Origin: Parcubacteria group bacterium
Lineage (GTDB): Bacteria; Patescibacteriota; Minisyncoccia; Minisyncoccales; UBA10102
Reading direction: 5' to 3'
Assembly: GCA_016203945.1 (NCBI GenBank)
Contig: JACQLT010000002.1
Span: forward strand, 181,336-245,335
DNA length: 64,000 nucleotides
Below are positions 1-38,894 of the stretch, in pieces. A model generated the notes under the pieces. The model did not search any database. It worked only from the letters and a program-made list of their open reading frames with translations, and was not told where the DNA came from. Positions within the stretch are counted from its first letter, which is position 1. The number at the start of each line of letters is the position of its first letter. Made by a program: the position numbers and the translations under genes.

Positions 1-369
1 TTCGTTAGAAATTCTCCCGAGAGAGGGGTTTGCTTCCAGAGTTCCGACTATCTCAAACTCATCGATATCCTTTTCGTCCACCAAAATGGTGACCTTGGCG
101 CCCAAAGATACCAGTTTGCACCCCGCGGCTCGTGGCGGAACAATGAGTTTTGCGTTCCTGAGAATGGCTTCGTGTTCACTCAGGCGCACTTCGAGAAGCG
201 AAAGGTCTTCCTGGAATGCGAGGTACTCTGGATTGATTTCTTCTGAATGCAGTACACTCGGCACCTCGCCCCTGGTCTTTGCCTTCTTGAATTCTACGAG
301 AAGCTTGTACTCTTTCTTTATGCGCTCCAGCCCTTCTTTTGTGAGATAGTATGTTGTTTCTGTGGTCAT
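1..369 (-). CDS. greA: transcription elongation factor GreA (3' partial, continues beyond window start)
   Basis: Minus-strand translation from ATG at 367-369 gives MTTETTYYLTKEGLERIKKEYKLLVEFKKAKTRGEV...FQEDLSLLEVRLSEHEAILRNAKLIVPP...GAKVTIL...EFEIVG, a typical GreA N-terminal coiled-coil plus FKBP-like C-domain pattern; no stop before position 1. Not in ORF track because it is open-ended. Confidence 0.7.
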   Translation of the reverse strand, partial: MTTETTYYLTKEGLERIKKEYKLLVEFKKAKTRGEVPSVLHSEEINPEYLAFQEDLSLLEVRLSEHEAILRNAKLIVPPRAAGCKLVSLGAKVTILVDEKDIDEFEIVGTLEANPSLGRISNE

Positions 370-594
370 GGTGTTAAAAAATCTGGCGTGGGGACCAGAT
401 GTATTGATACTCGATGGATTCTTGAGAGAACTATTATTGAGAGTCAATAAATCTGGCTGTATGTGTAAACAAGACAACTTTCGTGGAAATGGGGAACATG
501 ATAAATAATTTGCAGTTCATATGCTTGGGAAATCAACGTAGCAAGAGCAAGAGATGCTGTCAAGGGGCATGATTACCTACCATAAACCCCACAC

Positions 595-1854
595 CTAAAA
601 CAACTGCTTTTGAGGAGTTGATGCTTCTGCCTGCTGCCGCACAATTGATATTTTTCCGTACTCCCCGTCGTATCCCGGCTCAATGCTGACCTTGCCTTCG
701 CGCACCTGTATGATGGCCTGAGCTATTTCCGGAAACGTGGCTGCCTGAAGTTCCCGTGCTTTGGCATCAAGAAGCACGGCGAATTCGTTTCCGAATGCCA
801 AAATGAGCTTTTCGTACTCTGCCCTGCACTGCTTGGCAACGACTCCCATGTGCAGCGCCTCTGCGATGATTTCCTGCAAAGGGATGAGGGACTTAAACGG
901 GATGGCTCCCTTGGGCTTGCCCCCCGTAGATTTATCGAAGGGGGGTCTGTCGGCTAACTCTTCCACCCGGTTGAGCACGCCTATGGTAAGCTCTCTGCCG
1001 CACGCGGGGCAGATGTTGTTCCTCTTGCGCGACTCTGCAGGAGCAAGGCTAACCGAGCAAAGCCGGTGGCCGTCGTAATGGTACTTCCCCTCTTCGGGAA
1101 AGAATTCAATGGTGGAGAGAAACTTCTTGAGGTCTTTGGTCACGATCGCGTCGCGTATCCCCCTATAGCTAAGTTCGACTTCAAATATATTTGCCTCTCT
1201 CCCCATCTTAGCCAAGCTGTGGCAGTCTGAATTGCTGATAAGGGCTATTTTGTCTAACACGGACAGGCGCCAATTCATCGCAGGATCGCTAGAAAGCCCC
1301 GTTTCAATCGCGTGAATATGTTTTGCGTACTCGTCAAAGCATTCTTCAAGCGAATCAAACCCTGACTTTGATCCGAATACGGAAAACCACGGGGTCCAGG
1401 CATGCGCGGGAACAACCAGTGCCTCTGGAGACGCTGCCAGCGCTATCTTCAGTACCTCAGTCGCGTCAATGCCAAGGATTGGACGACCGTCTGACTTGAG
1501 GTTCCCCCGGACACCGAGACGCGCATTGATGTATTCTACTGCCTGGAGCGAAGGAACGAGAAGAAGAAGGTGAATTCTCCTCACCTTTCCTTTCTTTGAG
1601 TATATGCAGCTGATTTCAGAAGAGAACACGAACCTCGTTTCTAAGTCCGATCCCCGCAACTTATACAACCCTTCCTCGGCTGGCTCTAACTTCTCCTGGA
1701 GCTCCTTTAACCACGCGGGGTGCGTGAAGTCGCCCGTGCCGAGAACTTTGATGCCTTTCTTCTTAGCCCAGATACCAAGATTTTCCGGCACCATGTCTTG
1801 AGAGGTGGCTCTCGCGTATTTTGAGTGGATGTGAAAATCGCCGATAAACTTCAT
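595..1854 (-). CDS. PHP-domain metal-dependent phosphoesterase with zinc-ribbon (endonuclease Q-like, TIGR00375-type)
   Basis: N-terminus MKFIGDFHIHSKYARATS (PHP DxHxHS motif); internal HRLCSVSL...ICPACGRELT Cys cluster; size 419 aa like EndoQ/YqxK family; 4-nt overlap with upstream nuclease ORF. Confidence 0.5.
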   Translation of the reverse strand: MKFIGDFHIHSKYARATSQDMVPENLGIWAKKKGIKVLGTGDFTHPAWLKELQEKLEPAEEGLYKLRGSDLETRFVFSSEISCIYSKKGKVRRIHLLLLVPSLQAVEYINARLGVRGNLKSDGRPILGIDATEVLKIALAASPEALVVPAHAWTPWFSVFGSKSGFDSLEECFDEYAKHIHAIETGLSSDPAMNWRLSVLDKIALISNSDCHSLAKMGREANIFEVELSYRGIRDAIVTKDLKKFLSTIEFFPEEGKYHYDGHRLCSVSLAPAESRKRNNICPACGRELTIGVLNRVEELADRPPFDKSTGGKPKGAIPFKSLIPLQEIIAEALHMGVVAKQCRAEYEKLILAFGNEFAVLLDAKARELQAATFPEIAQAIIQVREGKVSIEPGYDGEYGKISIVRQQAEASTPQKQLF

Positions 1855-2597
1855 ACGGCACGACGCTTTGGATAGTTGATGATCTTTCGCAAGTGAATCC
1901 TGTTAGTCCATTCCCAGAGTTCTTTGGCCGCAAAAAAGGCCCGCAGGTCCTGTTCGTATTCCGAGAGTTCCAGGAATTCAAAATCTGCCTTTGGTTGCCC
2001 CCACTGGTGATTGCATATATCCAAGCCACCGTCCAGAAATGAGGAATATCCTCTCCGTCTGCGCCTAGCTTCGCATCCTTCGCATTCCTCATACTGATCA
2101 ATGCGCAATATCCATCTGGCTTCGTATTCGTGGCCGGACGCATTGGCGCTCACCAGGGCGTTGAAGTAAGCGGCTGTCTGAAGAAAGTATTCTCCAACAA
2201 GCTGCTTTCCGGTCTTTATCTCAATGAGGCCCTTCCGGTCTCCTACTTGCGCCACCATGTCCACGGTACCGGCATACGCAAGCTCTTTGTCGTGGACGCG
2301 GCGCTCCACGTCGTGCTCGGGATCCAAAAGTTTCACTTCGTACTCTTGCTGCCAGATCATCAGAGACTCTGCGATAGGGATGAGCCGAGGGTCCTGTTCG
2401 GCATCCGTGGACCCCCGCATCATGCCTCCTACGAATTCGTGCACGTCCGTGCCCCATTCAAGGCGCTCTCGGATTCCTCTCCTACCCCTCATGGCAAACG
2501 GGAACTTAGATATTATGGAGGTGATCGCCGTCACTCGCGGCAACCACATGCCTTCAATCTCGTATCCGAACTTCTGCTTGAATAGATCTATCCCCAT
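1851..2597 (-). CDS. PD-(D/E)XK nuclease superfamily protein (RecB/Cas4-like fold) with C-terminal Cys cluster
   Basis: Motifs GTVDMV (D), LIEIKTGK (E-x-K), QTAAYFNAL (QxxxY) in canonical order; CEGCE...C cluster near C-terminus. Confidence 0.5.
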   Translation of the reverse strand: MGIDLFKQKFGYEIEGMWLPRVTAITSIISKFPFAMRGRRGIRERLEWGTDVHEFVGGMMRGSTDAEQDPRLIPIAESLMIWQQEYEVKLLDPEHDVERRVHDKELAYAGTVDMVAQVGDRKGLIEIKTGKQLVGEYFLQTAAYFNALVSANASGHEYEARWILRIDQYEECEGCEARRRRRGYSSFLDGGLDICNHQWGQPKADFEFLELSEYEQDLRAFFAAKELWEWTNRIHLRKIINYPKRRAV

Positions 2598-2884
2598 CAG
2601 GGTTTCTTGAGAACTATTTTCGCAAGGTTTTCAAGAACGTCGCCTCCCGCGTATCCCGTAACGAGCATGAGGGCGGGAGTGAAGCTTGAGAGTTCCGTTG
2701 CGGCAACCCCAAGCTCTTGCAAGCTGAATGCCGCAGCCAACCCGGCAAGACCTGATATGCCCACCGTAGAAAGAAAATATTCCCAGCTGAACTTCACGTC
2801 TTTATACGAGGCGCGGTGTTTGACGTATCCGACCAACCCTCGCAGCACTCCCCCTGCCAATCCCCAAAGCAAAAATAGTTCCAT
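2597..2884 (-). CDS. small integral membrane protein (2-3 TM), hypothetical
   Basis: 95 aa, hydrophobic segments GLAGGVLRGLVGY / VGISGLAGLAAAFSL / LMLVTGYAGG; 1-nt overlap with downstream nuclease gene suggests operon. Confidence 0.4.
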   Translation of the reverse strand: MELFLLWGLAGGVLRGLVGYVKHRASYKDVKFSWEYFLSTVGISGLAGLAAAFSLQELGVAATELSSFTPALMLVTGYAGGDVLENLAKIVLKKP

Positions 2885-2912: not shown

Positions 2913-3704
2913 TCATATAACGATCCCGAGCGCTTCTTTTATTCCCCATCCGATACCAAACGCTACCGCGGATGCCAACCCCCCCACCAGCAGAATTTCA
3001 ATTCCTCCTTTTATGGCGTTACCGCCGGTCACAAAGGTACGGCTCGCGCCGACCACAAAGAAAGCGGAGAGGGACAAGACGGAAGCTGTCAAAAATCGAG
3101 AAGGCACGCCTCCGAAGATATAGGGAATGAGCGGAAGGGCTCCTGCGACAACGAATGCCCCGAAGGTAGCTGCGCCGTGTGCCAACGGAGAACCGGGGGG
3201 AGCCTCCTGGAGCTGCAACTCTTCTTTCATCATGAGATCAATCCACTTTGTCTTGTCGCTGACAATAGATGCGCAGGCCTGCTCAATAAGGTTGCCTGGG
3301 ATTCCCCAGTTGCGCAGAATAGTGCGGATCTCCTCTCGTTCTATTTCCGGGAAATGCTCCACCTCCCACTCTTCCCGCTTTCTCTGCATTGCGATAAAGG
3401 CCCGCTGGCTCCGCAGAGAAAGGAAGTTGGAGGCTGCCATGGAAAATCCGTCTGCCAGGAGGTTCGCGACCCCGAGAATGATGACGATGCCAGGAGCGAG
3501 GGCGGCTCCCGCAGCTCCCGCAACCACGGCAAACGTGGTGACGATGCCGTCGTTTGCTCCGTATACAAAGTCGCCGATATACGTTCCCTGATGAAGCCGA
3601 TGCCAGGTTTCTTCCGCTTTCCGATATTGCCTGTTCTCCACGAGCCCGATGTACCGCTTCTTTTTTGCTTCTTCCGCTTCCAGAAGCTCTGGTATATTTG
3701 TCAT
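2913..3704 (-). CDS. VIT1/CCC1 family (iron/manganese transporter-like) membrane protein
   Basis: [19 protein letters not shown] signature of VIT family; multiple TM segments. Start trimmed from ORF-track 3848 to ATG giving [16 protein letters not shown], removing overlap with upstream ORF. Confidence 0.55.
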
Positions 3705-5833: not shown

Positions 5834-6778
5834 TTAGATGACGTGTGTTGGCGCGCGGGTGTAGGCCTGCGTCGTGGAGATGCTGGCGTGGCCCAGCAAC
5901 TCTTGCACGCTGGTTAGCGACGCGCCTCCAGCCAGTTTGTGCTTGGCGAAGGAGTGGCGCAGGGTGTACGCCGTGACGGCGCCCTGGATATTGGCCAGGC
6001 GGGCATAGTCCTTGAGAATAAGCCAGAAGCCCTGGCGCGTTAGCCGCTCGCCGCGGCAGTTGATGAAGAGCGCCCGCGACCGGCGCAAGCGGGTCAAGTC
6101 GGGCCGCGCCTCCACCAGGTAGGCGTGCAGCGCGGCCACGGCCTGCTCGCGGATGGGGAGCAGGCGCTCCTTGCCCTGGCAGTGCACCCACGCCCGGTTA
6201 TTGTGCAACTTAATGGAGTCCAGGTCGAGCGCCACCAGTTCGCTCACGCGCATGCCGGTGCCGTAGAGTAACTCCAGCATGGCCTTGTCGCGCCGGGCCT
6301 TGGGCGTGAGGGCACAGGGCTGTTCCAGTAGTTCTCTCACCTCGGCTACTCTCAGCGCCTTGGGCAACAACTTACCCACGCGCGGGGACGATAACGCCTT
6401 GGCGGGATCGCTCGCCACGACTCCTTTGGCTGTGAGAAACCTGAAGAAGCTTTTCATCACCGTCACTTTGCGCGCTACGGTGGCGTTGGCATAGTCCTTG
6501 CCCTGCATAGTAGAGATGTAGGCCTGCAGGGTCTCGCGGTTGACGTCCTGCCAGCAGGACGTCTCCGCTCCGCGGTAGTCATTGCGGAACTTCTGGAGCT
6601 GGGTTAGATCGCTGCGGTAGGCAAAGATAGTGTTGGGGGCCACTCTCCTTTCCCTAAGCATGAACCCCAGAAACTGCTCTATCGTCGCGTCGCCAAATTC
6701 CAACTCTGCATTGGGCACGTCCATTCTCCTCCCTTGTGTTAGGTGCTGGCACTCAACAGGAATGCCCAACCATATCAA
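5834..6778 (-). CDS. xerC: tyrosine recombinase XerC/XerD family (site-specific integrase)
   Basis: ARRDKAMLELLYGTGMRVSELVALDLDSI, LRHSFAKHKLAGGASLTSVQELLGHASISTTQAYT: canonical R...HxxR...Y catalytic-domain motifs. Gene body is strongly GC-rich (~65-70%) versus ~50% flanks. Confidence 0.85.
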   Translation of the reverse strand: MIWLGIPVECQHLTQGRRMDVPNAELEFGDATIEQFLGFMLRERRVAPNTIFAYRSDLTQLQKFRNDYRGAETSCWQDVNRETLQAYISTMQGKDYANATVARKVTVMKSFFRFLTAKGVVASDPAKALSSPRVGKLLPKALRVAEVRELLEQPCALTPKARRDKAMLELLYGTGMRVSELVALDLDSIKLHNNRAWVHCQGKERLLPIREQAVAALHAYLVEARPDLTRLRRSRALFINCRGERLTRQGFWLILKDYARLANIQGAVTAYTLRHSFAKHKLAGGASLTSVQELLGHASISTTQAYTRAPTHVI

Positions 6779-6793
6779 AGAGTCCGAAGGGTG

Positions 6794-7111
6794 TCAATAA
6801 AAACCTGTTTTGAACACGCGATATCCTTCGCGCACCTGTTTTGTCACCTTCACCCCAACCTCCTGCCGCTTTTTAACGGCTACGATCTTCTTGTGGTCTT
6901 TCTCTATGGAACCGAGCGTCTGAGAGAACGATTTTCCTCCTCCTTCAAACCGAACTCTATCGCCCTTCTTTACCGGAACAGAAAACTTTACTACCGCAAC
7001 TTTGATCTTGTCGTAGTAATGAATAACTTTGCCCACGAGCTTGTCTTTCTGCTTCTTTTGACTAGCTCTTTTTACAGCAACCTTCTTTTTTGCCTTTTTC
7101 TTTGTCTCCAT
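6794..7111 (-). CDS. small Lys-rich protein with translation-factor domain-II-like beta-barrel
   Basis: METKKKAKKKVAVKRASQKKQKDK tail followed by GKVIHYYDKIKVAVVKFSVPVKKGDRVRFEGGGKSFSQTLGSIE...EVGVKV resembling EF-Tu/IF2 domain 2 pattern; function unknown. Confidence 0.35.
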   Translation of the reverse strand: METKKKAKKKVAVKRASQKKQKDKLVGKVIHYYDKIKVAVVKFSVPVKKGDRVRFEGGGKSFSQTLGSIEKDHKKIVAVKKRQEVGVKVTKQVREGYRVFKTGFY

Positions 7112-7150
7112 ATGGTTCTAGTATGGGGCGAACTTTCAATATGTGATATG

Positions 7151-7222
7151 TGTCCCCATCCAGACTCGAACTGGAATTTCAGCCTTCGGAGGGCTGCGCT
7201 CTATCCATTGAGCTATAAGGAC
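7151..7222 (-). tRNA. tRNA-Arg (anticodon CCG)
   Basis: Manual cloverleaf: acceptor GTCCTTA/TGGGGAC (two G-U), D arm GCTC-AATGGATA-GAGC, anticodon stem CAGCC/GGCTG loop CTCCGAA, T arm TCCAG-TTCGAGT-CTGGA. Confidence 0.75.
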
Positions 7223-8179: not shown

Positions 8180-9550
8180 TTACCCTATGTGACCTGTTTT
8201 GTCCAGCTCTTCTTTTACAACTTCTCTGTCGTCCCATGGAGTTTTCTTCCCTTTGGCCCAGGCAATGGAGTCTTCGGAGCCCTTGCCGGTGATGACTATT
8301 GTGTCGCCGACCTCTGCTCGTTGAAGAGCTGCTGCTATCGCCTCTCTCCTGTCCGGAATTTTTAATACCGCGGATTTATGCGGATACTGCTGACTGATAT
8401 ATTCTGCTCCTGCGATGACTTCATCAATGATTTTTTGAGGGTCCTCGTCGTACGGGTCTTCGTTGGTGACAATGACGACGTCGCAATAAGTTCCGGCCAG
8501 CTTGCCGAGAATGGGGCGCTTCCATGCGTCTCTTCCCCCTCCCGCGGCTCCCAGTACGCAGATGAGTTTTCCATTGGAGGTTTTTGCTTGCAGGCGCTGC
8601 CGCAGCGTTTTGTATACTTTTTCTAAGGCGTCTGGCGTAAACGCGTAGTCAACGATTACTTCAACGGGCTCTGTTGCAACCTGCTCCATCCTTCCTGGCA
8701 CCTTCTCAATGCTCTCTAATGCCTTTTTGCATGTCTGCATGTTTACGCCCTGCGACAGCGCCGTGCAGATTGCCGCCAGCGCGTTTGAAACATTGAATGT
8801 TCCCAAAAGATTGAGGTGGAATTCTGTATCTCCAACAGAAAACCGCACCCCACTTGCCTGCCGCTCAGGTAGGCCTCTCTCGTCTGCAGAAAGCGTTGCC
8901 TCCACAATCCGGAGAACTTCTTCTCCTGCCTGCCTCGCCGAGTCAAGGCGGGCAATGGATGTGCGAGAGCGCAATCCTGGAATCCTGTATCCAAAAATAG
9001 TCTGTGCGCTGAACTGCAGAAAATATTCCGCGTGTTCGTCATCAAGATTTATCACGTGCACCTCTTTGGCCGCTTGGAATAATCTTCCCTTGGCTTCGCG
9101 GTATTTCTCAAATGATCCGTGGCGCTCGATATGCTCCGGGCTCAAATTGGTGAATACCGCGGTGTGAAAATTAATGAACCTATGGCGGTGCTGTAAAATG
9201 CCCTCGGAAGTTATTTCCAGCACGGCGTGCGTGCAGCCCTGTTTCACGGCCTGGCACAAGAATCGCTGCAGGAAGAAGCGCCCGGGCATGGTCATCTTTA
9301 GGGTGTTGCGCTGGTCTTTGCCCGCAACACGAAATCGCACAGAAGAAAGGGAGGCGGTTTTCTTCCCTTCCTGTTCTAGGATGCGAGAAATCATTTCTAC
9401 GGTTGTTGACTTTCCGTTGGTGCCCGTCACCCCGATCACCACGAGCTTTCTTGAGGGGAATCCGTATATGAGAGCTGCGACAAGGGCGAGGCAGAAATGA
9501 TACCAATCTATCAAAAATTTCGGCGCTAATCTTCTTGCGAGATTCAGCAT
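8180..9550 (-). CDS. murE: UDP-N-acetylmuramoyl-tripeptide synthetase (Mur ligase, MurE-type)
   Basis: GVTGTNGKSTTVEMISRIL P-loop of Mur ligases; DYAFTPDALEKV (MurE DYAHTPDAL motif). Confidence 0.65.
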   Translation of the reverse strand: MLNLARRLAPKFLIDWYHFCLALVAALIYGFPSRKLVVIGVTGTNGKSTTVEMISRILEQEGKKTASLSSVRFRVAGKDQRNTLKMTMPGRFFLQRFLCQAVKQGCTHAVLEITSEGILQHRHRFINFHTAVFTNLSPEHIERHGSFEKYREAKGRLFQAAKEVHVINLDDEHAEYFLQFSAQTIFGYRIPGLRSRTSIARLDSARQAGEEVLRIVEATLSADERGLPERQASGVRFSVGDTEFHLNLLGTFNVSNALAAICTALSQGVNMQTCKKALESIEKVPGRMEQVATEPVEVIVDYAFTPDALEKVYKTLRQRLQAKTSNGKLICVLGAAGGGRDAWKRPILGKLAGTYCDVVIVTNEDPYDEDPQKIIDEVIAGAEYISQQYPHKSAVLKIPDRREAIAAALQRAEVGDTIVITGKGSEDSIAWAKGKKTPWDDREVVKEELDKTGHIG

Positions 9551-10135: not shown

Positions 10136-12217
10136 ATGGAATTCCGCCTTGTATCCAGCTACAAACCGACCGGAGATCAACCCGAGGCAATCCGTCAGCT
10201 CACAAAAAATCTTAAGATTGGGGCAAAACACCAGACGCTTTTGGGCGTGACAGGGTCTGGCAAGACATTCACTATGTCCAACGTCATCGCCCAGACCCAG
10301 CGCCCCACACTCGTCATCTCCCCCAACAAGACCCTGGCTGCCCAGCTCTACCAGGAGTTCAAAGAGTTCTTCCCCAACAGCGGGGTCCACTATTTCGTTT
10401 CCTATTACGACTACTATCAGCCAGAGGCCTACATTCCGCAAACAGACACCTATATTGAAAAAGACGCGAAAATAAATGAGGTGCTTGACCGCTTGCGCCA
10501 CGAGGCCGTTCAAGACGTGCTCTCGCGCAGAGACGTTATAGTGGTAGCTTCCATATCCTGCATCTATAGCATCGGGTCTCCTGAAGAATACCGGAGGGTC
10601 TCTCTTGGGCTGAAAGAGGGCCAGAAGATGACCCGCAAGGAACTTCTTTCAGCCCTGACTTCTCTCCAGTACCAGCGCAGCGACGCGGACTTAAAACCTG
10701 GAACGTTCCGGGTCAGGGGAGAAATCATTGACTTGTATTTGGTGACCGGCAAAGAAATCCTGAGGTTTGAAATGGCGGGGTCAACGATAGGGAAAATAAC
10801 GAAAAGCTACGCGGATCATGAAGAGCCGGGCACGGCTCTTTCTTCCTGCACCGTGTATCCCGGAAAATTCTGGGTTGCAGAAGAGGAACGCCTCAAGGTT
10901 GCCATGGCGAACATTCGCCTTGAACTCCAGGAACGGCTTCAAGAACTCAAAAAACAGGGAAAACTCCTGGAAGCGGAGCGCCTGGAACAGCGCACAAACT
11001 ATGATCTTGAGATGATAGCTGAATCCGGATACTGCCACGGCATTGAAAACTATTCTCGCCATCTTGAGTTCCGAAAGCAAGGAGACCCTCCGTTCACGCT
11101 TCTGGACTATTTCCCTGCCTCGCCAGCTCGCCTCGCTGAAGCTCCGGCGAAGCGGGCAGGCGGGCCCAAGGACCTCCTCGTATTCCTTGACGAAAGCCAT
11201 CTTACTCTTCCCCAGCTGCAGGCGATGTCCGCGCAGGACCGCATGCGCAAAGAATCTCTCGTGGAGCACGGATTCAGGCTGCCTTCTGCGATAGACAACC
11301 GGCCGCTGAGAAAAGAAGAGTTTTTTGCCAGGGCCCCTCAGGTAACATACGTGTCCGCGACTCCAGGGGCGTTTGAGAAACAGATGTCCGGCCCATTTGT
11401 GGCAGAACAGCTTATCCGCCCCACCCTGCTCTTAGAACCCGTCGTAGAAATAAGGACGACGAAGAACCAGCTCTCAGACCTTCTTAAGGAAATCCAGGGG
11501 CTCGCGCAGAAGAAACAGCGCACGCTCGTGGTCACGCTTACCAAACGCCTCGCAGAAGACATCGCAGACCATCTTGCAAAAGCAGGAGTCAGTGTGCAGT
11601 GGATGCACTCTGAAGTAAAGACGCTGGATCGTCCTCACATCCTAGAAAGCTTCAGGAGAGGAACATACGACGTACTCGTTGGCATCAACCTTCTGCGCGA
11701 GGGCTTGGATCTTCCCGAGGTCGCGCTTGTCGCGATTTTGGACGCCGACAAGGAGGGATTTCTGCGCAACGAAACAACGCTCATCCAGACCATGGGAAGG
11801 GCGGCCCGGCACCAAGAGGGCAGAGCCATTTTGTATGCCGACACGATTACGGGTTCCATGCAACGGGCACTCAAAGAAATCTCCAGGAGGAGAAAAATTC
11901 AGGAGGAGTACAACAAAGAGCATGGAGGGGTGCCACAGGCAATCGTGAAAGAAATCCGAAAGTGGGAACTCGGGACAAAAGAAAAAGCAACTCTGGCTGA
12001 GTTCGCGGCGGTCCAGGACGTTCAGGTCCTGCAACAAGAGATGAGGACGGCCGCCTCAAGCCTGGATTTTGAACGGGCTGCCGAAATTCGGGACTTGATA
12101 AAAAAAGTGAAGGGTGATACAAATACGGGGTATGGCAAATACAACATCGGCCCAGAAGGCGTTGCGGCAAAGCGTCAAAAGGAGAAAGATAAACCTGGCA
12201 AAAAAAGCCGGGGTTAA
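10136..12217 (+). CDS. uvrB: excinuclease ABC subunit B
   Basis: LLGVTGSGKTFTMSNVI Walker A; helicase motifs; C-terminal UVR domain LDFERAAEIRDLIKKVKG; 693 aa with an unusual 30-aa tail after the UVR motif. Confidence 0.9.
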   Translation: MEFRLVSSYKPTGDQPEAIRQLTKNLKIGAKHQTLLGVTGSGKTFTMSNVIAQTQRPTLVISPNKTLAAQLYQEFKEFFPNSGVHYFVSYYDYYQPEAYIPQTDTYIEKDAKINEVLDRLRHEAVQDVLSRRDVIVVASISCIYSIGSPEEYRRVSLGLKEGQKMTRKELLSALTSLQYQRSDADLKPGTFRVRGEIIDLYLVTGKEILRFEMAGSTIGKITKSYADHEEPGTALSSCTVYPGKFWVAEEERLKVAMANIRLELQERLQELKKQGKLLEAERLEQRTNYDLEMIAESGYCHGIENYSRHLEFRKQGDPPFTLLDYFPASPARLAEAPAKRAGGPKDLLVFLDESHLTLPQLQAMSAQDRMRKESLVEHGFRLPSAIDNRPLRKEEFFARAPQVTYVSATPGAFEKQMSGPFVAEQLIRPTLLLEPVVEIRTTKNQLSDLLKEIQGLAQKKQRTLVVTLTKRLAEDIADHLAKAGVSVQWMHSEVKTLDRPHILESFRRGTYDVLVGINLLREGLDLPEVALVAILDADKEGFLRNETTLIQTMGRAARHQEGRAILYADTITGSMQRALKEISRRRKIQEEYNKEHGGVPQAIVKEIRKWELGTKEKATLAEFAAVQDVQVLQQEMRTAASSLDFERAAEIRDLIKKVKGDTNTGYGKYNIGPEGVAAKRQKEKDKPGKKSRG

Positions 12218-12395
12218 AAGACTCAGAAAAGAATTGGAAGCTCTACTTCAAAAAAAAGAAATTCAGCAGGCCGAAGCTCTTCTCCAACAGGCCTACAAGT
12301 CGATTGATAAGGCGGCAAAAACCGGAGTACTTAAAAAGAATACTGCTGCGAGAAAAAAGTCTCGTCTGGCCCGCCTCCTGAAAACACGTTCGTAA
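12132..12395 (+). CDS. rpsT: 30S ribosomal protein S20
   Basis: MANTTSAQKALRQSVKRRKINLAKKAGVKRLRKEL...GVLKKNTAARKKSRLARLL matches S20 family; start placed at MANT; overlaps uvrB tail by ~85 nt in another frame. Confidence 0.7.
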   Translation: MANTTSAQKALRQSVKRRKINLAKKAGVKRLRKELEALLQKKEIQQAEALLQQAYKSIDKAAKTGVLKKNTAARKKSRLARLLKTRS

Positions 12396-13266
12396 GAAGG
12401 GTATCCAGGGCGGCTTCGGGTTCCATCTGGCCCGTCTTCATTGCGAAATCCGCTTGGAGTAAGAGCCCATGCATGTTCTTTAACTCTTCTGAAGAAAAGT
12501 TTGCGGCGTCTCTGGCTTTCCACCCCGAACCCTGTTCTTTCGCCTCTAAAAGGCTCCGAACCTGGAAGTGAAGCATGGAGAGAAGGTACACGGGCGACTC
12601 CCCCTTTGCAATGTGTCTGTGAAGAAGGCTGAACGCCTTCGTTTTGTTTTTTGCCGCAATCGAATTCAGCATAACGAAGATGTCTCCTACGAGAGCTGCT
12701 TCCGGAATAATCATAGCCACATCTTGCTTCTCTACGGTCTGGCCCTGCTTGAATGCGGCAAGCTTTGCCAATTCCTGGGACAGGCGCCAGAGATCATGTC
12801 CGGCTTCTTGCATCAAGAGAGTCCTCGCGTCTTTTGCAATCTCAACTCCGAGCGCCTTCCCCTCCCTCACAATCCACCGATCAAGTGCTGCAGCATCCAG
12901 TTCCTTATATTCGTGCACGGTTGCAACCTTCTGCAACGCTTTTAGCAAAGAATCTGATGCAAGGATTTTCCCCCGCTCAAGCAGCACAAGAATGAGGGAG
13001 GGGTTCTTGGCTAACGACTCGACCGAATTCGCAATGTGTTCCTTAAACTCCTTGATGCCGAATACATCCTCTAGGACGAGAAGTTTCTTCTCCTGGAAAA
13101 GCGAGTGGCTCTGCAGCTCATTTCTCAGCTCTTCTAAACTGATTTGTTCCACTCCCAACCTTTTTGCGCTAAACCCGGTCTTCCCGGAGGCTCCGTACGC
13201 TTCCCAGATCTCCCACAGCTTCTTTCGCGCCAAGTATTCTTCTTTCCCGTAGAGAAGGATAATCAT
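12331..13266 (-). CDS. holA: DNA polymerase III delta subunit
   Basis: 311 aa, MIILLYGKEEYLARKKL start and overall delta-subunit (clamp loader) pattern; convergent 65-nt overlap with rpsT. Confidence 0.55.
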   Translation of the reverse strand: MIILLYGKEEYLARKKLWEIWEAYGASGKTGFSAKRLGVEQISLEELRNELQSHSLFQEKKLLVLEDVFGIKEFKEHIANSVESLAKNPSLILVLLERGKILASDSLLKALQKVATVHEYKELDAAALDRWIVREGKALGVEIAKDARTLLMQEAGHDLWRLSQELAKLAAFKQGQTVEKQDVAMIIPEAALVGDIFVMLNSIAAKNKTKAFSLLHRHIAKGESPVYLLSMLHFQVRSLLEAKEQGSGWKARDAANFSSEELKNMHGLLLQADFAMKTGQMEPEAALDTLLTNVFSGGGPDETFFSQQYSF

Positions 13267-13270: not shown

Positions 13271-15484
13271 TTACAGCTCCGCCCAACTGGTCGCCTGCGA
13301 AACCCTTACCAGCAGCGGCGGATCAAACGATACCACCTCTTCCATCGCCTTCTTGATGGGAAGCATATAATTCTGCGCTTTTGTGTCCGGGCATTCCAGA
13401 AGCAGTTCGTCGTGCACCTGGAGCAGCATACGGCATTCTGAATTGGAGTTCAATACGAGCTCTTGAACCCGCACCATCGCCATTTTCATGATGTCGGCTG
13501 CCGTACCTTGCGCCGGCATGTTTATTGCCATGCGTTCAGCAGCCGCCCTTATTTGAGGGGTCGGGGAATTCACGTCGGGCAAAAATCGCTTTCTCCCAAA
13601 CATGGTTTCCACGTATCCATGCTTTCTCGCAAACTCTTTGGTCTCTTCCATATACCTCAAGATGCCGGGGAATCTGAGGAAGTACTGGTCAATGAAATCT
13701 TGGGCCTCTTGCAACGGAATGCCAGAAGACCTCGCAAATCCCCGAGCTCCCATGCCGTACAGCACTCCGAAGTTCAGGGCCTTTGCCCGAAAGCGCATCT
13801 CTTGAGAAACATCTCCGGGAGCGATGCCGAACACTTCGGCTGCCGTCATGGCGTGAATATCAAGGCCTTTCTCAAAAAACGTTTTCATTTTCTCTTCCTT
13901 TGCGAGGGCTGCTGCAATGCGAAGCTCCATTTGGGAGTAGTCAAAAGAAAGGAGGATATGATTTTTTTCTGCAATGAATCCTTTGCGGATTTTCTTTCCC
14001 CAGACGCCCTGCAAAGGAATATTTTGAAGATTTGGATTGGAGGAAGACAGACGGCCAGTCGCGGCCCCAAACTGATCGAAGCTGGTATGGATGCGGTCGT
14101 TCGCATCGGCTTTCTCCAGGAGCGGTAAGACATACGTGCTCAGGAGCTTCTTGAGTTCCCGGTATGCGACCACATGCGAGACGATCGGATGGAGATTATA
14201 GATTTTCTCCAGCTCGTCTGACGCCGTTGAAAACACGCCTCCCGGAGTTTTCTTCAACCCATTGGATGGGAGCCCCAGGGTTTGGAACAGCGCAACGGAG
14301 AGCTGTGCGGGGGAGTTCAGATTGAACTGCTGGCCGGCCATTGCGTATACTTCCTTCTCTATGCCTCGCATCTTCTCATCCATTTCTTGAGCGAGCTTCG
14401 TAAAGTACTTACGGTCTATCTTCATGCCCGCCTTCTCTATAGCTCCTAAGATTGGGATGAGTTTGCGCTCTAGTTCGGCTAACGCAGGAGGAAGCACTCC
14501 GCTCTCTTCTAATTGCTTAATTCTTGTTTCCAGGGTGGCTGAAGCATCTTCTTGCACCAAAAGAATCGGGGGTGCGGCGCCCTTATCCGCGATGAGCATA
14601 GGGAGCTTGTCCACGAGCGAAAAGAATTCCAGCTCTTTGAGCTTTTCCGCAGCTGCTCCCCTGTCGTATCCCTTCCACGCGCAATCCTTGAGCTGAAACT
14701 CCATGGGAACGTTCTGGTCTATGGTTCCCAGGTCTTTACTGATAAACGCGTCTTCTTTGGAGGCCAAGAGCGTTGTCCTGAGCCTTGGAGAAATATTTTC
14801 TGTTTCTTTTTTTTCTATCTTTTTATAGATGTTTTCTAGAGATCCAAATTGAGAAAGAAGTGTGATCGCTGTTTTTTCTCCCACTCCGCGAACCCCTGGA
14901 ATATTATCTGAAGGGTCTCCGTGCAATCCTTTGTAATCCGGAAGTTGAGAGGGGAGGAGACCCGAAAACCGTTCTTGCACGGCCTTCTTATTAAACAACG
15001 CTACGTCTTGCAATCCTCTGCGGGCGGCAAACACCTTTACTTGATCGTTCACCAGCTGGAGCGCGTCCATGTCCCCTGAGGCAATGATGATTCCCAGTTT
15101 TGGGTACGCCTGAGCTCTCTGCGCCTTCTTTGCGATTGTGCCGATGAGATCGTCCGCCTCAAATCCCTGCTTCTCATACACGGGAATGCCCAGCACGGCG
15201 AGCAGTTCTTTTACGCGCGGCATTTGGGCGTAGAGCTCATCCGGGGCTTTTACGCGTTTTGCCTTGTATCCCGCATACGCTCTGTGGCGTTTTGTGGGGC
15301 CCGGCATATCAAAAGTTGCCGCAATATATTCCGGATGGAATTCTTTGATTGCCTTGAAGAGCACAAGAAGAAATCCGTACGCGGCGTTGGTAAGCTCGCC
15401 TGTTCTTGTGCGAAACGGCGGCAACGCATGAAATGCCCGGTGGATAAGGGAGTTCGCGTCAATGATAAGAAGGCGTTGTTTCAT
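13271..15484 (-). CDS. polA: DNA polymerase I (5'-3' exonuclease + polymerase; short form, 737 aa)
   Basis: N-terminal 5' nuclease LLIIDANSLIHRAFHAL; polymerase motifs RFRAKALNFGVLYGMGARG (motif B), QVHDELLLE (motif C). Confidence 0.9.
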   Translation of the reverse strand: MKQRLLIIDANSLIHRAFHALPPFRTRTGELTNAAYGFLLVLFKAIKEFHPEYIAATFDMPGPTKRHRAYAGYKAKRVKAPDELYAQMPRVKELLAVLGIPVYEKQGFEADDLIGTIAKKAQRAQAYPKLGIIIASGDMDALQLVNDQVKVFAARRGLQDVALFNKKAVQERFSGLLPSQLPDYKGLHGDPSDNIPGVRGVGEKTAITLLSQFGSLENIYKKIEKKETENISPRLRTTLLASKEDAFISKDLGTIDQNVPMEFQLKDCAWKGYDRGAAAEKLKELEFFSLVDKLPMLIADKGAAPPILLVQEDASATLETRIKQLEESGVLPPALAELERKLIPILGAIEKAGMKIDRKYFTKLAQEMDEKMRGIEKEVYAMAGQQFNLNSPAQLSVALFQTLGLPSNGLKKTPGGVFSTASDELEKIYNLHPIVSHVVAYRELKKLLSTYVLPLLEKADANDRIHTSFDQFGAATGRLSSSNPNLQNIPLQGVWGKKIRKGFIAEKNHILLSFDYSQMELRIAAALAKEEKMKTFFEKGLDIHAMTAAEVFGIAPGDVSQEMRFRAKALNFGVLYGMGARGFARSSGIPLQEAQDFIDQYFLRFPGILRYMEETKEFARKHGYVETMFGRKRFLPDVNSPTPQIRAAAERMAINMPAQGTAADIMKMAMVRVQELVLNSNSECRMLLQVHDELLLECPDTKAQNYMLPIKKAMEEVVSFDPPLLVRVSQATSWAEL

Positions 15485-16199: not shown

Positions 16200-17513
16200 A
16201 TGAAAATAGGGGCGGGAGAAGAGCGACAACGTCTAACTGGGGAAGTTCGCGTGGAACCCGCATTCCTCGCAGAGCTTGAAGAAAAATTGAAGGGTGGGGA
16301 GTCCGTTCTGGACGTTCTTAATGAAGCATTTGGAAAGGGGACGAGCGAGGTGGTGCGCGTGCTTCTGGGGACCGCCCTCACGCAGCAGGCCTCCGATATC
16401 CACATTGAACCTGGGAAAGAACATGCCCAGGTTCGTTTTCGCATGGACGGCCTGCTTCACGATATGGCCGTCGTCTCCCCTGCCCAGTACCAAGGAATTC
16501 TTTCTCGCATCAAACTGCTCTCCGCCCTCAAGCTCAACATCACAGACCGCGCGCAAGACGGCAGGTTCACCGTCGCTGCAGAACAGCTCATGGAAATCAG
16601 GGTGTCCAGCCTGCCCTCAGAATACGGGGAATCCCTGGTGCTGCGCGTGCTCAACCCGAAAAATATCCTTTCTTTGGAGGAGCTGGGGCTCAGAAAAGAT
16701 CTTCTTGAGATATTCCGCAAAGAGATCGCGAAGCCCAACGGCATGATCATCGTCACGGGTCCCACGGGAGCCGGCAAAACCACGACGCTGTACGCGTTTC
16801 TGCGGGAAATCAACGACCCCGAAATTAAGATCATCACCATTGAGGACCCTATTGAATACCATCTGGAAGGGATTTCCCAAACCCAGGTGCATCCTGAAAA
16901 AGGGTATATGTTCGCCTCGGGGCTCCGGGCAATTGTGCGCCAAGATCCAGACGCTATCTTGGTGGGAGAAATCCGGGACGCGGAAACCGCAGACATCGCC
17001 CTGCAGGCCTCGCTCACCGGACACCTGGTGCTCACCACGCTTCATACGAATGACGCCGCAGGGACGATTACGAGATTGATAAGCTTGGGGGCAAAACCCG
17101 TGAACATAGCTCCGGCCCTGAACCTCGCCGTGGCTCAGCGGCTTGTGCGAAGAGTATGCAAGGGGTGCGCTTCGTTCAAAGAAATGACAAAAGAAGAGCT
17201 CGCTCAGGTCCGACAAGAGCTTGAGCATCTTCCTGCTGGAATGAAACCCAAGATTGGGAGTACAATTAAAATAGCCCGGGCAAAGGGCTGTAAAGAGTGC
17301 GGCAAGAGCGGCTACCTGGGGAGGGTGGGGCTGTTTGAAGCAATCGTCATGGATGACGAATTGCGGGAGCTCGTGCTGACATCTCCCTCCATCGCTCAAC
17401 TGAAAAAGAGGGCGATTGAAAAGGGTATGATCACGTTGCGCCAAGACGGGATCCTGCTCGTACTCCAGGGCGTCACGACCATGGAAGAAATAGAGCGGGT
17501 GACCGCAGAATGA
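16200..17513 (+). CDS. pilB: GspE/PilB-family secretion/pilus assembly ATPase (N-terminally short, 437 aa)
   Basis: GPTGAGKTTTLYAFL Walker A, DPIEYHL, tetracysteine CKGC...CKECGKSG zinc motif characteristic of PilB/GspE. Confidence 0.85.
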   Translation: MKIGAGEERQRLTGEVRVEPAFLAELEEKLKGGESVLDVLNEAFGKGTSEVVRVLLGTALTQQASDIHIEPGKEHAQVRFRMDGLLHDMAVVSPAQYQGILSRIKLLSALKLNITDRAQDGRFTVAAEQLMEIRVSSLPSEYGESLVLRVLNPKNILSLEELGLRKDLLEIFRKEIAKPNGMIIVTGPTGAGKTTTLYAFLREINDPEIKIITIEDPIEYHLEGISQTQVHPEKGYMFASGLRAIVRQDPDAILVGEIRDAETADIALQASLTGHLVLTTLHTNDAAGTITRLISLGAKPVNIAPALNLAVAQRLVRRVCKGCASFKEMTKEELAQVRQELEHLPAGMKPKIGSTIKIARAKGCKECGKSGYLGRVGLFEAIVMDDELRELVLTSPSIAQLKKRAIEKGMITLRQDGILLVLQGVTTMEEIERVTAE

Positions 17514-26882: not shown

Positions 26883-27346
26883 GCGCTGAACCAACAATTG
26901 AAATAGCAAAGCTGCTCGTCAAAGAGCTGTTCTCGCGCCTGGGGATCAAAGAAGCTCCGGCCGTGAGCATGCCAGACGGGCAGACCCTGCAGGTGACCCT
27001 GACAATAGAAGACCCCAAGACCCTTATTGGAGAACGCGGCCAGACGCTGTTTGAAATCCAGCATCTTCTGCGCGCTATGCTCAGAAAAAAACTTCAGCAA
27101 GACCCCCCCCGCGTATTCCTGGATATCAACGACTACCGCAAGAGCAAGGAAGAATATCTTCGGGACGCAGCCCGGCTGGCGGCCGACGAAGCGGTGCTGC
27201 TCAGTAAGCCCCGCGAGCTCGAGGCAATGTCGGCGGCTGACCGCAGGATCGTGCACATGGAATTAGCCCAGCGCTCAGACGTTGCCTCCGAGAGCATAGG
27301 AGAAGGAGAAGAGAGAAGGGTGGTGATAAAGCCGAGGGCATCCTAA
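26879..27346 (+). CDS. jag: RNA-binding protein Jag/KhpB (KH + R3H)
   Basis: KH-like TLIGERGQTLFEIQHLL and R3H RIVHMELAQRSDVASESIGEGEERRVVI; ATGA overlap with yidC. Confidence 0.7.
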   Translation: MSAEPTIEIAKLLVKELFSRLGIKEAPAVSMPDGQTLQVTLTIEDPKTLIGERGQTLFEIQHLLRAMLRKKLQQDPPRVFLDINDYRKSKEEYLRDAARLAADEAVLLSKPRELEAMSAADRRIVHMELAQRSDVASESIGEGEERRVVIKPRAS

Positions 27347-29136: not shown

Positions 29137-29141
29137 GTGCG

Positions 29142-29774: not shown

Positions 29775-29777
29775 TGT

Positions 29778-30179: not shown

Positions 30180-30192
30180 GATGTTTTTTACA

Positions 30193-30624: not shown

Positions 30625-30627
30625 TTT

Positions 30628-31077: not shown

Positions 31078-31226
31078 AGATATAGTTTATCACCGCGAAA
31101 GAATACCACAAGCCTGCCTGCCGCAGGCAGGCGCCACTTGACACAGCCACTTTTTTGTTGTAGTATTGCTCCAGAAAAACTGAACCTTAAGAACAAAAAG
31201 AAAGCAGGCCAGAAAGGAGGTCGCGC

Positions 31227-31445: not shown

Positions 31446-31463
31446 AAGAAAGGAAGGTGTAGT

Positions 31464-32537: not shown

Positions 32538-32586
32538 CAGCGGCAAAGCACAAAGGGGGTTTGCGAAAGCAGCCCCCTTTTTATTA

Positions 32587-38892: not shown

Positions 38893-38894
38893 AG

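What the first reader, a model, noticed from the sequence alone, without database searches (positions are those of the whole stretch)
595..2884. Operon pairing a PHP/EndoQ-like phosphoesterase with a PD-(D/E)XK (RecB/Cas4-like) nuclease and a small membrane protein
The three minus-strand genes have 1-4-nt overlaps, so they are translationally coupled. EndoQ-type PHP enzymes nick DNA at deaminated or abasic sites. Pairing one with a Cys-cluster RecB-fold nuclease is not a standard repair operon. The pair could be a lesion-processing module or a nuclease-based defence system.
Basis: partly seen in the sequence, partly recalled or inferred. Interest (0 to 1): 0.6.

Follow-up and report, generated by a model that had tools for sequence, protein, structure and literature searches.

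The report
EndoQ repair nuclease with MGME1-like exonuclease
In an ultra-small (CPR/Parcubacteria) bacterium, a gene for the lesion-nicking enzyme EndoQ directly follows genes for an uncharacterised exonuclease resembling human mitochondrial MGME1 and a tiny membrane protein; this looks like a lineage-specific housekeeping DNA-repair cluster rather than an anti-phage defence system.

Summary

The host is a Wildermuthbacteria-like Parcubacterium. The locus lies about 22 kb from dnaA, among uvrB, polA and holA, and PolX and NUDIX lie just downstream. No defence-system models matched the neighbours. No relatives were found on viral contigs.

In 38 of 42 informative loci from two sister clades, EndoQ lies downstream of the nuclease on the same strand, although the outer flanks differ between the clades. 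Unrelated genes are often inserted between the two. A third clade keeps the nuclease without EndoQ nearby, and two of three sampled EndoQ loci lack this nuclease.

Best reading: a lesion-incision repair cluster, with EndoQ nicking and the MGME1-like nuclease trimming the 5' end or flap. The functional coupling is inferred, not shown. Interest is moderate to low.

The parts
595..1854 (-). [quoted passage not shown]
   Evidence: Matches TIGR00375 at E 3e-58 over the full length (198 bits, below the equivalog cutoff of 326.6). Matches PfuEndoQ 5zb8 at E 3.8e-54, residues 4-408 against 4-386. H8, H10, E80, H95, H151, D210, H212, T154, W156, E184, G186, N208 and Zn ligands H263/C266/C282/C285 are invariant in 120 homologues. 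A Qxx[LMI]F pattern ending within 3 residues of the C-terminus occurs in 101/120, and the looser [FL]-ending pattern in 116/120.
1851..2597 (-). MGME1-like RecB-type PD-(D/E)XK nuclease, 248 aa, with a CxxC...CxH zinc-ribbon-like insertion (C172, C175, C195, H197).
2597..2884 (-). Small membrane protein of 95 aa with 2-3 hydrophobic segments. It carries conserved GGxxRGLVGxxKH and GYAGGDFLEN motifs and is a weak LydA-holin (superfamily III) relative.
   Evidence: Pfam Phage_holin_3_3 matches at E 6.8e-5 (23.3 bits, below the cutoff of 28.4). Nine of 16 family members hit the same model, best 2.1e-6. PHROG holin families match at about 2e-4. Hydropathy profile. Found immediately upstream of the nuclease in 25 of 45 near-clade loci.
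1851..1854 (-). ATGA stop/start overlap between the nuclease and EndoQ.
   Evidence: Read directly from the sequence. The same 4-nt overlap (gap -3) is seen in 8 related loci, plus a 2-nt overlap in L045.
2597..2597 (-). 1-nt overlap (TGATG) between the membrane-protein stop codon and the nuclease start codon.
   Evidence: Read directly from the sequence.
381..400 (-). Terminator-like hairpin plus T-run about 200 nt downstream of the EndoQ stop. It is a possible end of the transcription unit.
   Evidence: Consensus scan only. Weak evidence.
2913..3704 (-). VIT1-family transporter gene, 28 nt upstream of the membrane-protein gene. It is a co-directional neighbour and probably functionally unrelated.
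   Evidence: Pfam VIT1 matches at 3.5e-60. Called as 263 aa on the same contig. Absent from clade-B loci that still keep the membrane-protein/nuclease/EndoQ core.
1..369 (-). 5' part of greA, cut by the window edge. It is the first gene downstream of EndoQ. Beyond it on the same contig lie an HD (YfbR-like) gene, an LDcluster4 gene, PolX and NUDIX.
   Evidence: tblastn to the GreA cluster at 80% identity. Gene calls on L081.

Best explanation
This is a housekeeping chromosomal gene run in a Wildermuthbacteria-like Parcubacterium (CPR).

Shown:
- Gene 595-1854 encodes a catalytically intact endonuclease Q.
- Gene 1851-2597 encodes a catalytically intact RecB-type nuclease whose nearest solved relative is the ssDNA/flap exonuclease MGME1.
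- Gene 2597-2884 encodes a small holin-superfamily-like membrane protein.
- The nuclease-then-EndoQ order on one strand is inherited across two sister clades whose outer flanks differ.

Inferred mechanism:
1. EndoQ, probably held on the beta sliding clamp through its C-terminal QKxLF tail, nicks DNA immediately 5' of uracil, hypoxanthine, xanthine or abasic sites. This leaves a 3'-OH and a 5'-phosphate on the damaged nucleotide, as the archaeal enzyme does.
2. A polymerase extends from the 3'-OH. Candidates are Pol I, 11 kb away, or the PolX encoded about 2 kb downstream.
3. The MGME1-like nuclease threads the 5'-phosphorylated, lesion-bearing single strand or flap under its helical arch and trims it to a ligatable nick. 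This is the step assigned to Fen1 in the archaeal EndoQ model.

The membrane protein is most likely a syntenic passenger.
For: EndoQ identity and intact active site: with residue roles taken from PMC5961232.

Clamp motif: a C-terminal QKxLF-type tail is present in 101-116 of 120 homologues. It parallels the PCNA-binding PIP box at the C-terminus of archaeal EndoQ (PMC4858679). That paper also proposes strand displacement, Fen1 flap cleavage and ligation after the EndoQ nick.

Linkage: EndoQ lies downstream on the same strand in 38 of 42 informative near-clade loci. Thirteen of these have a gap of 8 nt or less, or an overlap. The linkage persists in clade B, where the flanks are entirely different: a UvrD-helicase/nuclease fusion upstream and ftsZ downstream.

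Repair-rich surroundings: PolX, NUDIX and a YfbR-like HD protein lie downstream. uvrB, polA and holA lie upstream. An AlkD-like gene is inserted in L013.
Against: The coupling is not obligatory.
- Unrelated genes are inserted between the two nucleases in 24 of 38 loci. These include a small 2-TM ORF, an HD protein, HEPN/MNT and RelE toxin-antitoxin genes, and inserts of up to 3.8 kb.
- Four near-clade loci with enough flank have no EndoQ downstream but keep an intact nuclease.
- All of clade C (35 loci) keeps every catalytic residue with no EndoQ within about 8 kb. Instead the nuclease sits near a Mur ligase, ribosomal protein genes and, in 14 of 35 loci, a PolB-exo-like 3'-5' exonuclease.
- Two of three sampled EndoQ loci lack this nuclease family.
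- EndoQ is far more widespread than the full-length nuclease family: more than 8000 homologues against about 21 clusters at 50% identity.
- The genome encodes Pol I with a 5'-3' exonuclease domain, which could remove the lesion without help.
- No biochemical, expression or interaction data exist.
Confidence: 0.45

Rival explanations
1. Inherited synteny only. The two nucleases sit together because of shared descent in a compact genome, and they work in different processes. The MGME1-like nuclease would be a general replication or recombination end/flap-processing enzyme of Paceibacteria, and EndoQ an independent lesion endonuclease served by Pol I.
For: Clade C and four near-clade loci keep a fully intact nuclease without EndoQ nearby. 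EndoQ occurs without this nuclease in L084 and L086. Toxin-antitoxin, HD and other genes are frequently inserted between the two. In clade A the whole AcyP-ORF122-VIT1-TM95-nuclease-EndoQ block is syntenic, including clearly unrelated genes. Pol I with a 5'-3' exonuclease domain is present.
Against: The nuclease-then-EndoQ order survives in clade B, where every outer flank gene differs from clade A. It extends to pairs only about 35% identical (L044, L045). Direct overlap or near-abutment recurs in 13 loci. Both enzymes act on DNA strand ends, and the product of one (a 5'-P nick) is a preferred kind of substrate for the relatives of the other.
Confidence: 0.38
2. Nuclease-based anti-phage defence. 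EndoQ would nick uracil- or otherwise base-modified phage DNA, and the exonuclease would degrade it from the nicks.
For: A review (PMC8307549, citing Shiraishi 2017) notes that Bacillus EndoQ might take part in antiviral defence, because it cuts uracil-DNA and is not blocked by the phage inhibitor Ugi. Weak PADLOC Cas4/DruK domain hits were found for the nuclease, E 4e-4 to 2e-3. Toxin-antitoxin genes occasionally insert at the junction.
Against: No PADLOC hit for EndoQ, the membrane protein or 10 neighbours. The locus is vertically inherited and found once per sampled locus, in a fixed housekeeping context near dnaA, uvrB and polA. There is no GC anomaly, and the window has no CRISPR or cas genes. 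The family is absent from IMG/VR viral contigs. The XerC-like recombinase nearby is an insertion specific to this genome, while the synteny is intact in loci without it.
Confidence: 0.05
3. Processing of imported DNA for nucleotide salvage. CPR bacteria lack nucleotide synthesis, so a membrane-associated set (holin-like protein, ssDNA exonuclease, HD 5'-nucleotidase, NUDIX) would degrade incoming DNA, with EndoQ cutting damaged sites.
For: A small membrane protein is tightly linked upstream. YfbR-like HD and NUDIX genes lie nearby, and an HD gene sits between the nuclease and EndoQ in clade B. The statement that CPR bacteria depend on salvage is my own background knowledge and was not checked here.
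Against: The nuclease has no signal peptide or TM segment (model). EndoQ is lesion-specific and carries a clamp-type tail, which points to chromosomal DNA. The membrane protein and its 2-TM partner also occur next to EndoQ without the nuclease, and 20 of 45 near-clade loci lack the membrane protein. No competence genes are adjacent.
Confidence: 0.07
4. Prophage remnant: a holin plus phage exonuclease cassette fixed in the chromosome.
For: Weak holin-family hits were found for the 95-aa protein. The best family-library hit of the nuclease is a phage 'exonuclease' PHROG, at 3.6e-15.
Against: No relatives on 2.9 million viral contigs. No endolysin, terminase or structural genes are nearby. The chromosomal position is conserved across three clades of Paceibacteria.
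Confidence: 0.03

Closest known systems
Endonuclease Q (PfuEndoQ/TkoEndoQ; PDB 5ZB8, 7K30; TIGR00375; bacterial example Bacillus pumilus EndoQ)
   Same: Collinear over the full length, with PHP, Zn-binding and C-terminal helical domains. All metal ligands, lesion-pocket residues and the Trp wedge are conserved. It carries a clamp-interaction-type motif at the extreme C-terminus, in the position where archaeal EndoQ has its PIP box (PMC4858679).
   Different: The score is below the TIGR00375 equivalog cutoff (198 against 326.6 bits). The first Zn ligand is His instead of Cys (HCCC against C4). The tail is bacterial-type QKxLF rather than a PIP box. The host is a mesophilic CPR bacterium. Some clade members carry a LAGLIDADG intein at the active-site His. 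Many database copies are mislabelled 'DNA helicase UvrD'.
MGME1 (mitochondrial genome maintenance exonuclease 1), a RecB-type PD-(D/E)XK ssDNA/flap exonuclease
   Different: Only 14-17% identical, and not an orthologue. It has a CxxC...CxH beta-hairpin (zinc-ribbon-like) insertion that is absent from MGME1. It is bacterial and confined to Paceibacteria-type CPR genomes in the searches made. About half of the near-clade members end in a QKVLI-type tail. Its activity is untested.
Cas4 (DUF83) and the AddB/AdnAB/Dna2 nuclease domains
   Different: No N-terminal Cys and no CX2CX5C-type arrangement, so the four-Cys Fe-S layout is not met. There are no cas genes or CRISPR array. The window protein has no Pfam Cas_Cas4 hit.
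Archaeal EndoQ-PolB-Fen1-ligase pathway on PCNA (model of Shiraishi et al. 2016)
   Same: The proposed logic is the same: a clamp-tethered nick 5' of the lesion, strand displacement, removal of the 5' flap, then ligation.
   Different: Here the flap or 5'-end nuclease candidate is an MGME1-like PD-(D/E)XK enzyme encoded next to endoQ rather than Fen1. The clamp would be the bacterial beta clamp, and the candidate polymerases are Pol I or PolX. All of these steps are inferred.
LydA-type holins (Pfam PF16083, holin superfamily III)
   Same: Similar size and number of hydrophobic segments. Weak matches cover nearly the whole profile in 9 of 16 family members.
   Different: All scores are below the gathering cutoff. 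There is no endolysin or phage context. The protein is chromosomal and vertically inherited, and in relatives it is often paired with another small 2-TM protein.

Membership tests
Endonuclease Q | PHP-domain metal ligands (PfuEndoQ His8, His10, Glu76, His84, His139, Asp193, plus His195) | tested here: met
   H8, H10, E80, H95, H151, D210 and H212 are present, and invariant in 120 homologues. The residue list is from PMC5961232.
Endonuclease Q | Lesion-recognition pocket and wedge (Thr142, Trp144, Glu167, Gly169, Asn191) | tested here: met
   T154, W156, E184, G186 and N208 are invariant. Leu168 is replaced by Thr in the ETGLS segment.
Endonuclease Q | Zn-binding domain with four ligands (Cys249, Cys252, Cys268, Cys271) | tested here: met
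   H263, C266, C282 and C285 form the site. The first ligand is His rather than Cys, and this is invariant in 120 CPR homologues.
Endonuclease Q | Full-length collinearity including the C-terminal helical domain | tested here: met
   Residues 4-408 align to PfuEndoQ 4-386 at E 3.8e-54. The TIGR00375 profile is covered over positions 3-374 of 374.
Endonuclease Q | Score above the curated TIGR00375 equivalog cutoff | tested here: not met
   198 bits against a cutoff of 326.6. The model was built on archaeal and Firmicute sequences, so this is a divergent family member and not an 'equivalog' by NCBI's threshold.
Endonuclease Q | C-terminal sliding-clamp interaction motif | tested here: inconclusive
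   The protein ends in QKQLF. A Qxx[LMI]F pattern ending within 3 residues of the C-terminus occurs in 101 of 120 homologues, and a looser form in 116 of 120. It resembles the bacterial beta-clamp pentapeptide QL[SD]LF, a consensus recalled from my own knowledge. Binding was not tested.
Endonuclease Q | Incision of the phosphodiester bond 5' of dU, dI, dX or AP sites | not testable with these tools
   Needs enzyme assays.
RecB-type / MGME1-like PD-(D/E)XK exonuclease | Motifs Ia (His), I (Glu), II (Asp), III (D/E-x-K) and IV (QhxxY) | tested here: met
   H53, E98, D113, E126/K128 and Q140...Y144 are aligned to the corresponding MGME1 motif segments (residue numbers His180, Glu223, Asp238, Asp251/Lys253 and QhxxY are from PMC6237815). 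They are invariant in 79 members.
RecB-type / MGME1-like PD-(D/E)XK exonuclease | Fold, including the helical arch over the active site | tested here: met
RecB-type / MGME1-like PD-(D/E)XK exonuclease | Orthology to MGME1 proper | tested here: not met
   Identity is 14-17%. The extra Zn-ribbon-like insertion is absent from MGME1. The relation is at superfamily level only.
RecB-type / MGME1-like PD-(D/E)XK exonuclease | ssDNA/flap exonuclease activity | not testable with these tools
   Needs enzyme assays.
Cas4 (DUF83) | Four-Cys Fe-S cluster (one N-terminal Cys plus three C-terminal Cys) | tested here: not met
   No Cys precedes residue 172. The conserved set is C172, C175, C195 and H197, within predicted beta-hairpins at 160-210.
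Cas4 (DUF83) | Association with cas1/cas2 and a CRISPR array, or a Pfam PF01930 match | tested here: not met
   The window protein has no Pfam hit. The neighbours are VIT1, acylphosphatase, a permease, GreA, PolX and similar genes. The window has no repeated 20-mers and only tRNA Rfam hits.
Known anti-phage defence systems (PADLOC) | Component models matching the genes and their neighbours; defence-island context | tested here: not met
   Only weak Cas4/DruK domain hits were found for the nuclease. Ten neighbours gave none. The context is housekeeping.
LydA-type holin (PF16083) | Profile match above the gathering score, plus a lysis-cassette context | tested here: inconclusive
   The score is 23.3 bits against a cutoff of 28.4. 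Nine of 16 relatives hit weakly, best 2.1e-6. No endolysin is adjacent.

The most novel reading that the evidence does not exclude
The membrane-protein/MGME1-like nuclease/EndoQ core is a dedicated, beta-clamp-tethered nucleotide-incision repair module of Paceibacteria. In it, a zinc-ribbon-bearing MGME1-like exonuclease takes the role that Fen1 plays after EndoQ in archaea. This would be the first functional assignment for a bacterial MGME1-like enzyme and the first defined downstream partner of a bacterial EndoQ. A more remote possibility is that the same pair also restricts uracil-containing foreign DNA.
Probability: 0.3. Interest if true: 0.5.

Novelty: new variant of a known kind. Interest (0 to 1): 0.35.

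Why it matters
EndoQ was described as an enzyme of Thermococcales and methanogens that is rare in bacteria (PMC4357722). Here it turns out to be abundant and highly conserved in CPR bacteria, with more than 8000 homologues, and it carries a bacterial-type clamp tail. What happens after the EndoQ nick has not been established in bacteria.

A neighbouring, catalytically intact MGME1-like nuclease gives a concrete candidate that can be tested biochemically. It also gives a possible role to an uncharacterised, CPR-restricted nuclease family. If the coupling is real, it shows how genome-reduced bacteria assemble a glycosylase-independent repair route.

If the coupling is not real, the finding is ordinary: two correctly recognisable repair genes that happen to be neighbours.

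Tried and rejected
1. Cas4/Fe-S reading. Rejected on the Cys pattern and on context.
2. Defence island. PADLOC scans of the trio and 10 neighbours gave nothing beyond weak domain hits.
3. Phage origin. A scan of IMG/VR with the family alignment found no relative.
4. Mobile island bounded by tRNA-Arg and the XerC-like recombinase (5834-7222). Rejected because related loci keep the same gene order without the recombinase.
5. The idea that nuclease copies lacking the C-terminal QKVLI-type tail are the ones that directly overlap endoQ, piggy-backing on EndoQ's clamp motif. No correlation was found.
6. The 'PDDEXK_1' gene 3.3 kb upstream of EndoQ in L086. It is a different family (hhalign probability 2.9%).
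7. Sequence search of the single nuclease protein against PDB found nothing. Only the family profile and the fold search revealed MGME1.
8. The AFDB fold library was unavailable.
9. Literature search for EndoQ together with CPR, Patescibacteria or Parcubacteria. None of the 10 top-ranked papers contained 'endonuclease Q'.
10. Promoter scan. Counts were no higher than in shuffled sequence.
Full report
OBSERVATION. The junctions read TGATG (1-nt overlap) and ATGA (4-nt overlap). On an identical public contig, these are the only 2 overlapping junctions among 14 same-strand junctions. GC content (0.50-0.53) does not differ from the rest of the window.

ORGANISM AND SETTING. Identical proteins are recorded from a 'Parcubacteria group bacterium' MAG, and the nearest relatives are Candidatus Wildermuthbacteria. 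The window is core chromosome:
- dnaA at 24068-25462 and holA at 12331-13266.
- polA with a 5'-3' exonuclease domain at 13271-15484, and uvrB at 10136-12217.
- A Mur ligase at 8180-9550, plus nusA, RNase Y, PNPase and the CCA-adding enzyme.
- Twelve tRNA genes.

Upstream of the trio, on the same strand, lie a XerC-like recombinase, an amino-acid permease, acylphosphatase, a 122-aa membrane ORF and a VIT1 transporter. Downstream, beyond the window edge, lie greA, a YfbR-like HD protein, an LDcluster4 protein, a PolX (HHH_8, thumb and PHP domains) and a NUDIX hydrolase. Terminator-like hairpins lie after the recombinase, at the end of the permease gene and about 200 nt after endoQ. None of any quality lies in between. 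The trio may therefore be the tail of a longer transcript, but this rests on a consensus scan only.

THE 419-aa PROTEIN IS AN ENDONUCLEASE Q. It aligns over its full length with PfuEndoQ (E 3.8e-54) and with TIGR00375 (E 3e-58). At 198 bits it is below the equivalog cutoff of 326.6. Residue roles come from the crystal-structure paper (PMC5961232). Using them:
- All metal ligands are present: H8, H10, E80, H95, H151, D210, H212.
- The lesion-pocket residues (T154, E184, G186, N208) and the wedge (W156) are present.
- All of these are invariant in 120 homologues.
- The Zn-binding domain has H263/C266/C282/C285, so one Cys of the archaeal C4 site is replaced by His.

The protein ends in QKQLF. 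A Qxx[LMI]F pattern ending within 3 residues of the C-terminus is present in 101 of 120 homologues, and a looser form in 116 of 120. This resembles the bacterial beta-clamp-binding pentapeptide, a consensus I recall from my own knowledge. It sits where archaeal EndoQ carries the PIP box that binds and is stimulated by PCNA (PMC4858679). The family is very large, with more than 8000 hits, and many records are labelled 'DNA helicase UvrD', which the domain content does not support.

THE 248-aa PROTEIN IS AN MGME1-LIKE RecB-TYPE NUCLEASE, NOT A Cas4.
- The single sequence hits no Pfam model and no PDB sequence.
- Its relatives carry PF12705.
- A 32-sequence alignment (A1) gave a confident AF2 model with pLDDT 90.3.
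- The family profile finds MGME1 by sequence at E 4.6e-8.
- The five motifs that define RecB-type nucleases (PMC6237815) correspond to H53, E98, D113, E126-x-K128 and Q140xxxY144. All are invariant in 79 family members.
- C172, C175 and H197 are invariant, and C195 nearly so. They sit at the turns of predicted beta-hairpins. This is a zinc-ribbon-like CCCH site that MGME1 lacks, and it does not match the Cas4 Fe-S layout.
- The full-length family is small, about 21 clusters at 50% identity with E<=1e-30. A much wider set shares only the core, 2794 clusters at E<=1e-10.
- All 80 genomic loci recovered are Parcubacteria/Paceibacteria-type CPR genomes.
- None were found on viral contigs.

THE 95-aa PROTEIN has 2-3 hydrophobic segments and strongly conserved GGxxRGLVGxxKH and GYAGGDFLEN motifs. 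Its only database similarity is weak, to LydA-type holins. The Pfam score is below the cutoff, though 9 of 16 relatives hit the same model, and two PHROG holin families match. In relatives it is often accompanied by another small 2-TM protein (cluster c17), which is absent from this window. In a Nealsonbacteria locus these two membrane proteins sit near endoQ without the nuclease. I regard this protein as a syntenic passenger of unknown function.

IS THE PAIRING MORE THAN SYNTENY? A neighbour-joining tree of the 79 nucleases gives three clades.
- Clades A and B: EndoQ lies downstream on the same strand in 38 of 42 loci that have enough flank.
- The gap is 8 nt or less, or an overlap, in 13 of these. 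It is about 320-480 nt in 12, usually holding the c17 ORF. It is 540-1000 nt in 8, holding an HD protein or RelE. It is 1.3-3.8 kb in 4, holding HEPN/MNT, an AlkD-like gene or other genes.
- The outer flanks of clade B are entirely different from those of clade A: a UvrD-helicase/PD-(D/E)XK fusion upstream, and ftsZ, a nucleotidyltransferase, a thioredoxin-reductase-like oxidoreductase and enolase downstream. The membrane-protein/nuclease/EndoQ core therefore outlasts its surroundings. This argues for some selective linkage.

Against an obligatory partnership:
- Four near-clade loci have no EndoQ downstream yet keep an intact nuclease.
- All 35 clade-C loci lack EndoQ within about 8 kb, apart from one copy 7.8 kb away. 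There the nuclease lies near a Mur ligase, L27/L9 and, in 14 of 35 loci, a PolB-exo-like 3'-5' exonuclease.
- Of three EndoQ-centred loci sampled, two lack this nuclease family.

MECHANISM (inferred). EndoQ nicks 5' of deaminated or abasic nucleotides and leaves a 5'-phosphate on the lesion (PMC4357722). In archaea the proposed follow-up is strand displacement, Fen1 flap cleavage and ligation on PCNA (PMC4858679). MGME1 is an ssDNA/flap exonuclease whose activity is enhanced by a 5'-phosphate (PMC4937333 and PMC9460513, listed). The most economical hypothesis is that the adjacent MGME1-like enzyme trims the lesion-bearing 5' strand after the EndoQ nick, with Pol I or the nearby PolX filling the gap. 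Because Pol I here has its own 5'-3' exonuclease domain, the nuclease is not strictly needed. That keeps the synteny-only rival nearly as likely.

DEFENCE READING. PADLOC gave only weak Cas4/DruK domain hits for the nuclease and nothing for 10 neighbours. There is no CRISPR, no cas genes, no compositional island and no viral copies. The only support is a literature remark that Bacillus EndoQ might act on uracil-DNA phages (PMC8307549). I rate this reading at about 5%.

NOVELTY AND VERDICT. EndoQ is a known family, and these CPR genes are already auto-annotated as such. Three points were absent from the literature I could search (top 10 papers only):
- The MGME1-like relationship and zinc-ribbon insertion of the neighbouring nuclease.
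- Its conserved position upstream of endoQ in two Paceibacteria clades.
- The bacterial clamp-type tail on CPR EndoQ.

This is a plausible new variant of a known repair route. It rests on comparative evidence only, and interest is moderate to low (0.35).

Noticed in passing
L005:6082-8676, L008:9001-11583, L015:6790-9324, L017:8777-11362, L032:6074-8569: In five related loci, the EndoQ gene is interrupted by an in-frame insertion of about 1.25 kb at residues 151-155, at the active-site His of the PAHAWTPW segment. The 860-aa product hits the Intein_splicing and LAGLIDADG_3 models, so this is an intein with a homing endonuclease inside EndoQ. The window copy has no intein.
   Followed up: partly
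L081:6810-10901 (same contig as the window, beyond window position 1): Downstream of EndoQ lie greA, a YfbR-like HD phosphohydrolase, an LDcluster4 protein, a 565-aa PolX (HHH_8, thumb and PHP domains) and a NUDIX hydrolase. The PolX-NUDIX pair also lies 4 kb downstream of EndoQ in a Nealsonbacteria locus (L084). This linkage may be as conserved as the one examined here.
   Followed up: partly
L005:5726-6085, L007:1544-1909, L084:5544-5876 and 11 other loci: A conserved ORF of about 96-125 aa with two TM helices (cluster c17) travels with the 95-aa holin-like protein. It sits between the nuclease and EndoQ in clade A, upstream of them in clade B, and directly after the holin-like gene in L084. 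It has no Pfam or PHROG hit, and the 64-kb window has no copy.
   Followed up: partly
L047, L048, L063, L066, L071, L072 and 8 further clade-C loci: In the EndoQ-less clade, the nuclease is adjacent or close to a 239-aa predicted 3'-5' exonuclease (DNA_pol_B_exo2 / RNase H fold) in 14 of 35 loci. This is a second recurring nuclease-nuclease neighbourhood for the family.
   Followed up: partly
L003-L043 (about 20 of 45 near-clade loci); absent at window 1851-1880: About half of the near-clade nuclease homologues end in a QKVLI, QKILL or QYTLL tail that resembles EndoQ's QKxLF tail. This may be a second clamp-binding motif. The window copy ends in PKRRAV and lacks it. The tail shows no correlation with direct adjacency to endoQ.
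   Followed up: partly
window 595-1854 and database records P0121, P0124, P0135 and others: Many public records name these EndoQ homologues 'DNA helicase UvrD'. No helicase domain is present, so this looks like a propagated misannotation.
   Followed up: partly
L031:8804-9534, L032 (same pair), L003:9402-9743: Toxin-antitoxin-type genes (HEPN plus MNT nucleotidyltransferase; RelE) have inserted between the nuclease and endoQ in some genomes.
   Followed up: partly
window 5834-7222: A XerC/D-type tyrosine recombinase (5834-6778) lies near tRNA-Arg(ccg) (7150-7222). Related loci have the same flanking gene order without the recombinase, so it is an insertion specific to this genome and a few others.
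   Followed up: partly
window 57056-64000: A cluster of seven tRNA genes (57.0-58.2 kb) is followed by a lower-GC stretch (0.42-0.45, against about 0.52). That stretch encodes an AhpC/TSA-type redoxin, a DUF3179 protein and an FAD oxidoreductase. It may be acquired DNA.
   Followed up: no
window 13271-15484: Pol I here is only 737 aa. It has 5'-3' exonuclease domains and a family-A polymerase domain, with about 80 residues between them, so a 3'-5' proofreading domain appears to be missing.
   Followed up: no
window 27343-40676: A TraG-like P-loop ATPase (27343-29136) lies near three large ORFs (820, 543 and 593 aa) that have no Pfam match. A type II/IV secretion ATPase lies at 16200-17513.
   Followed up: no
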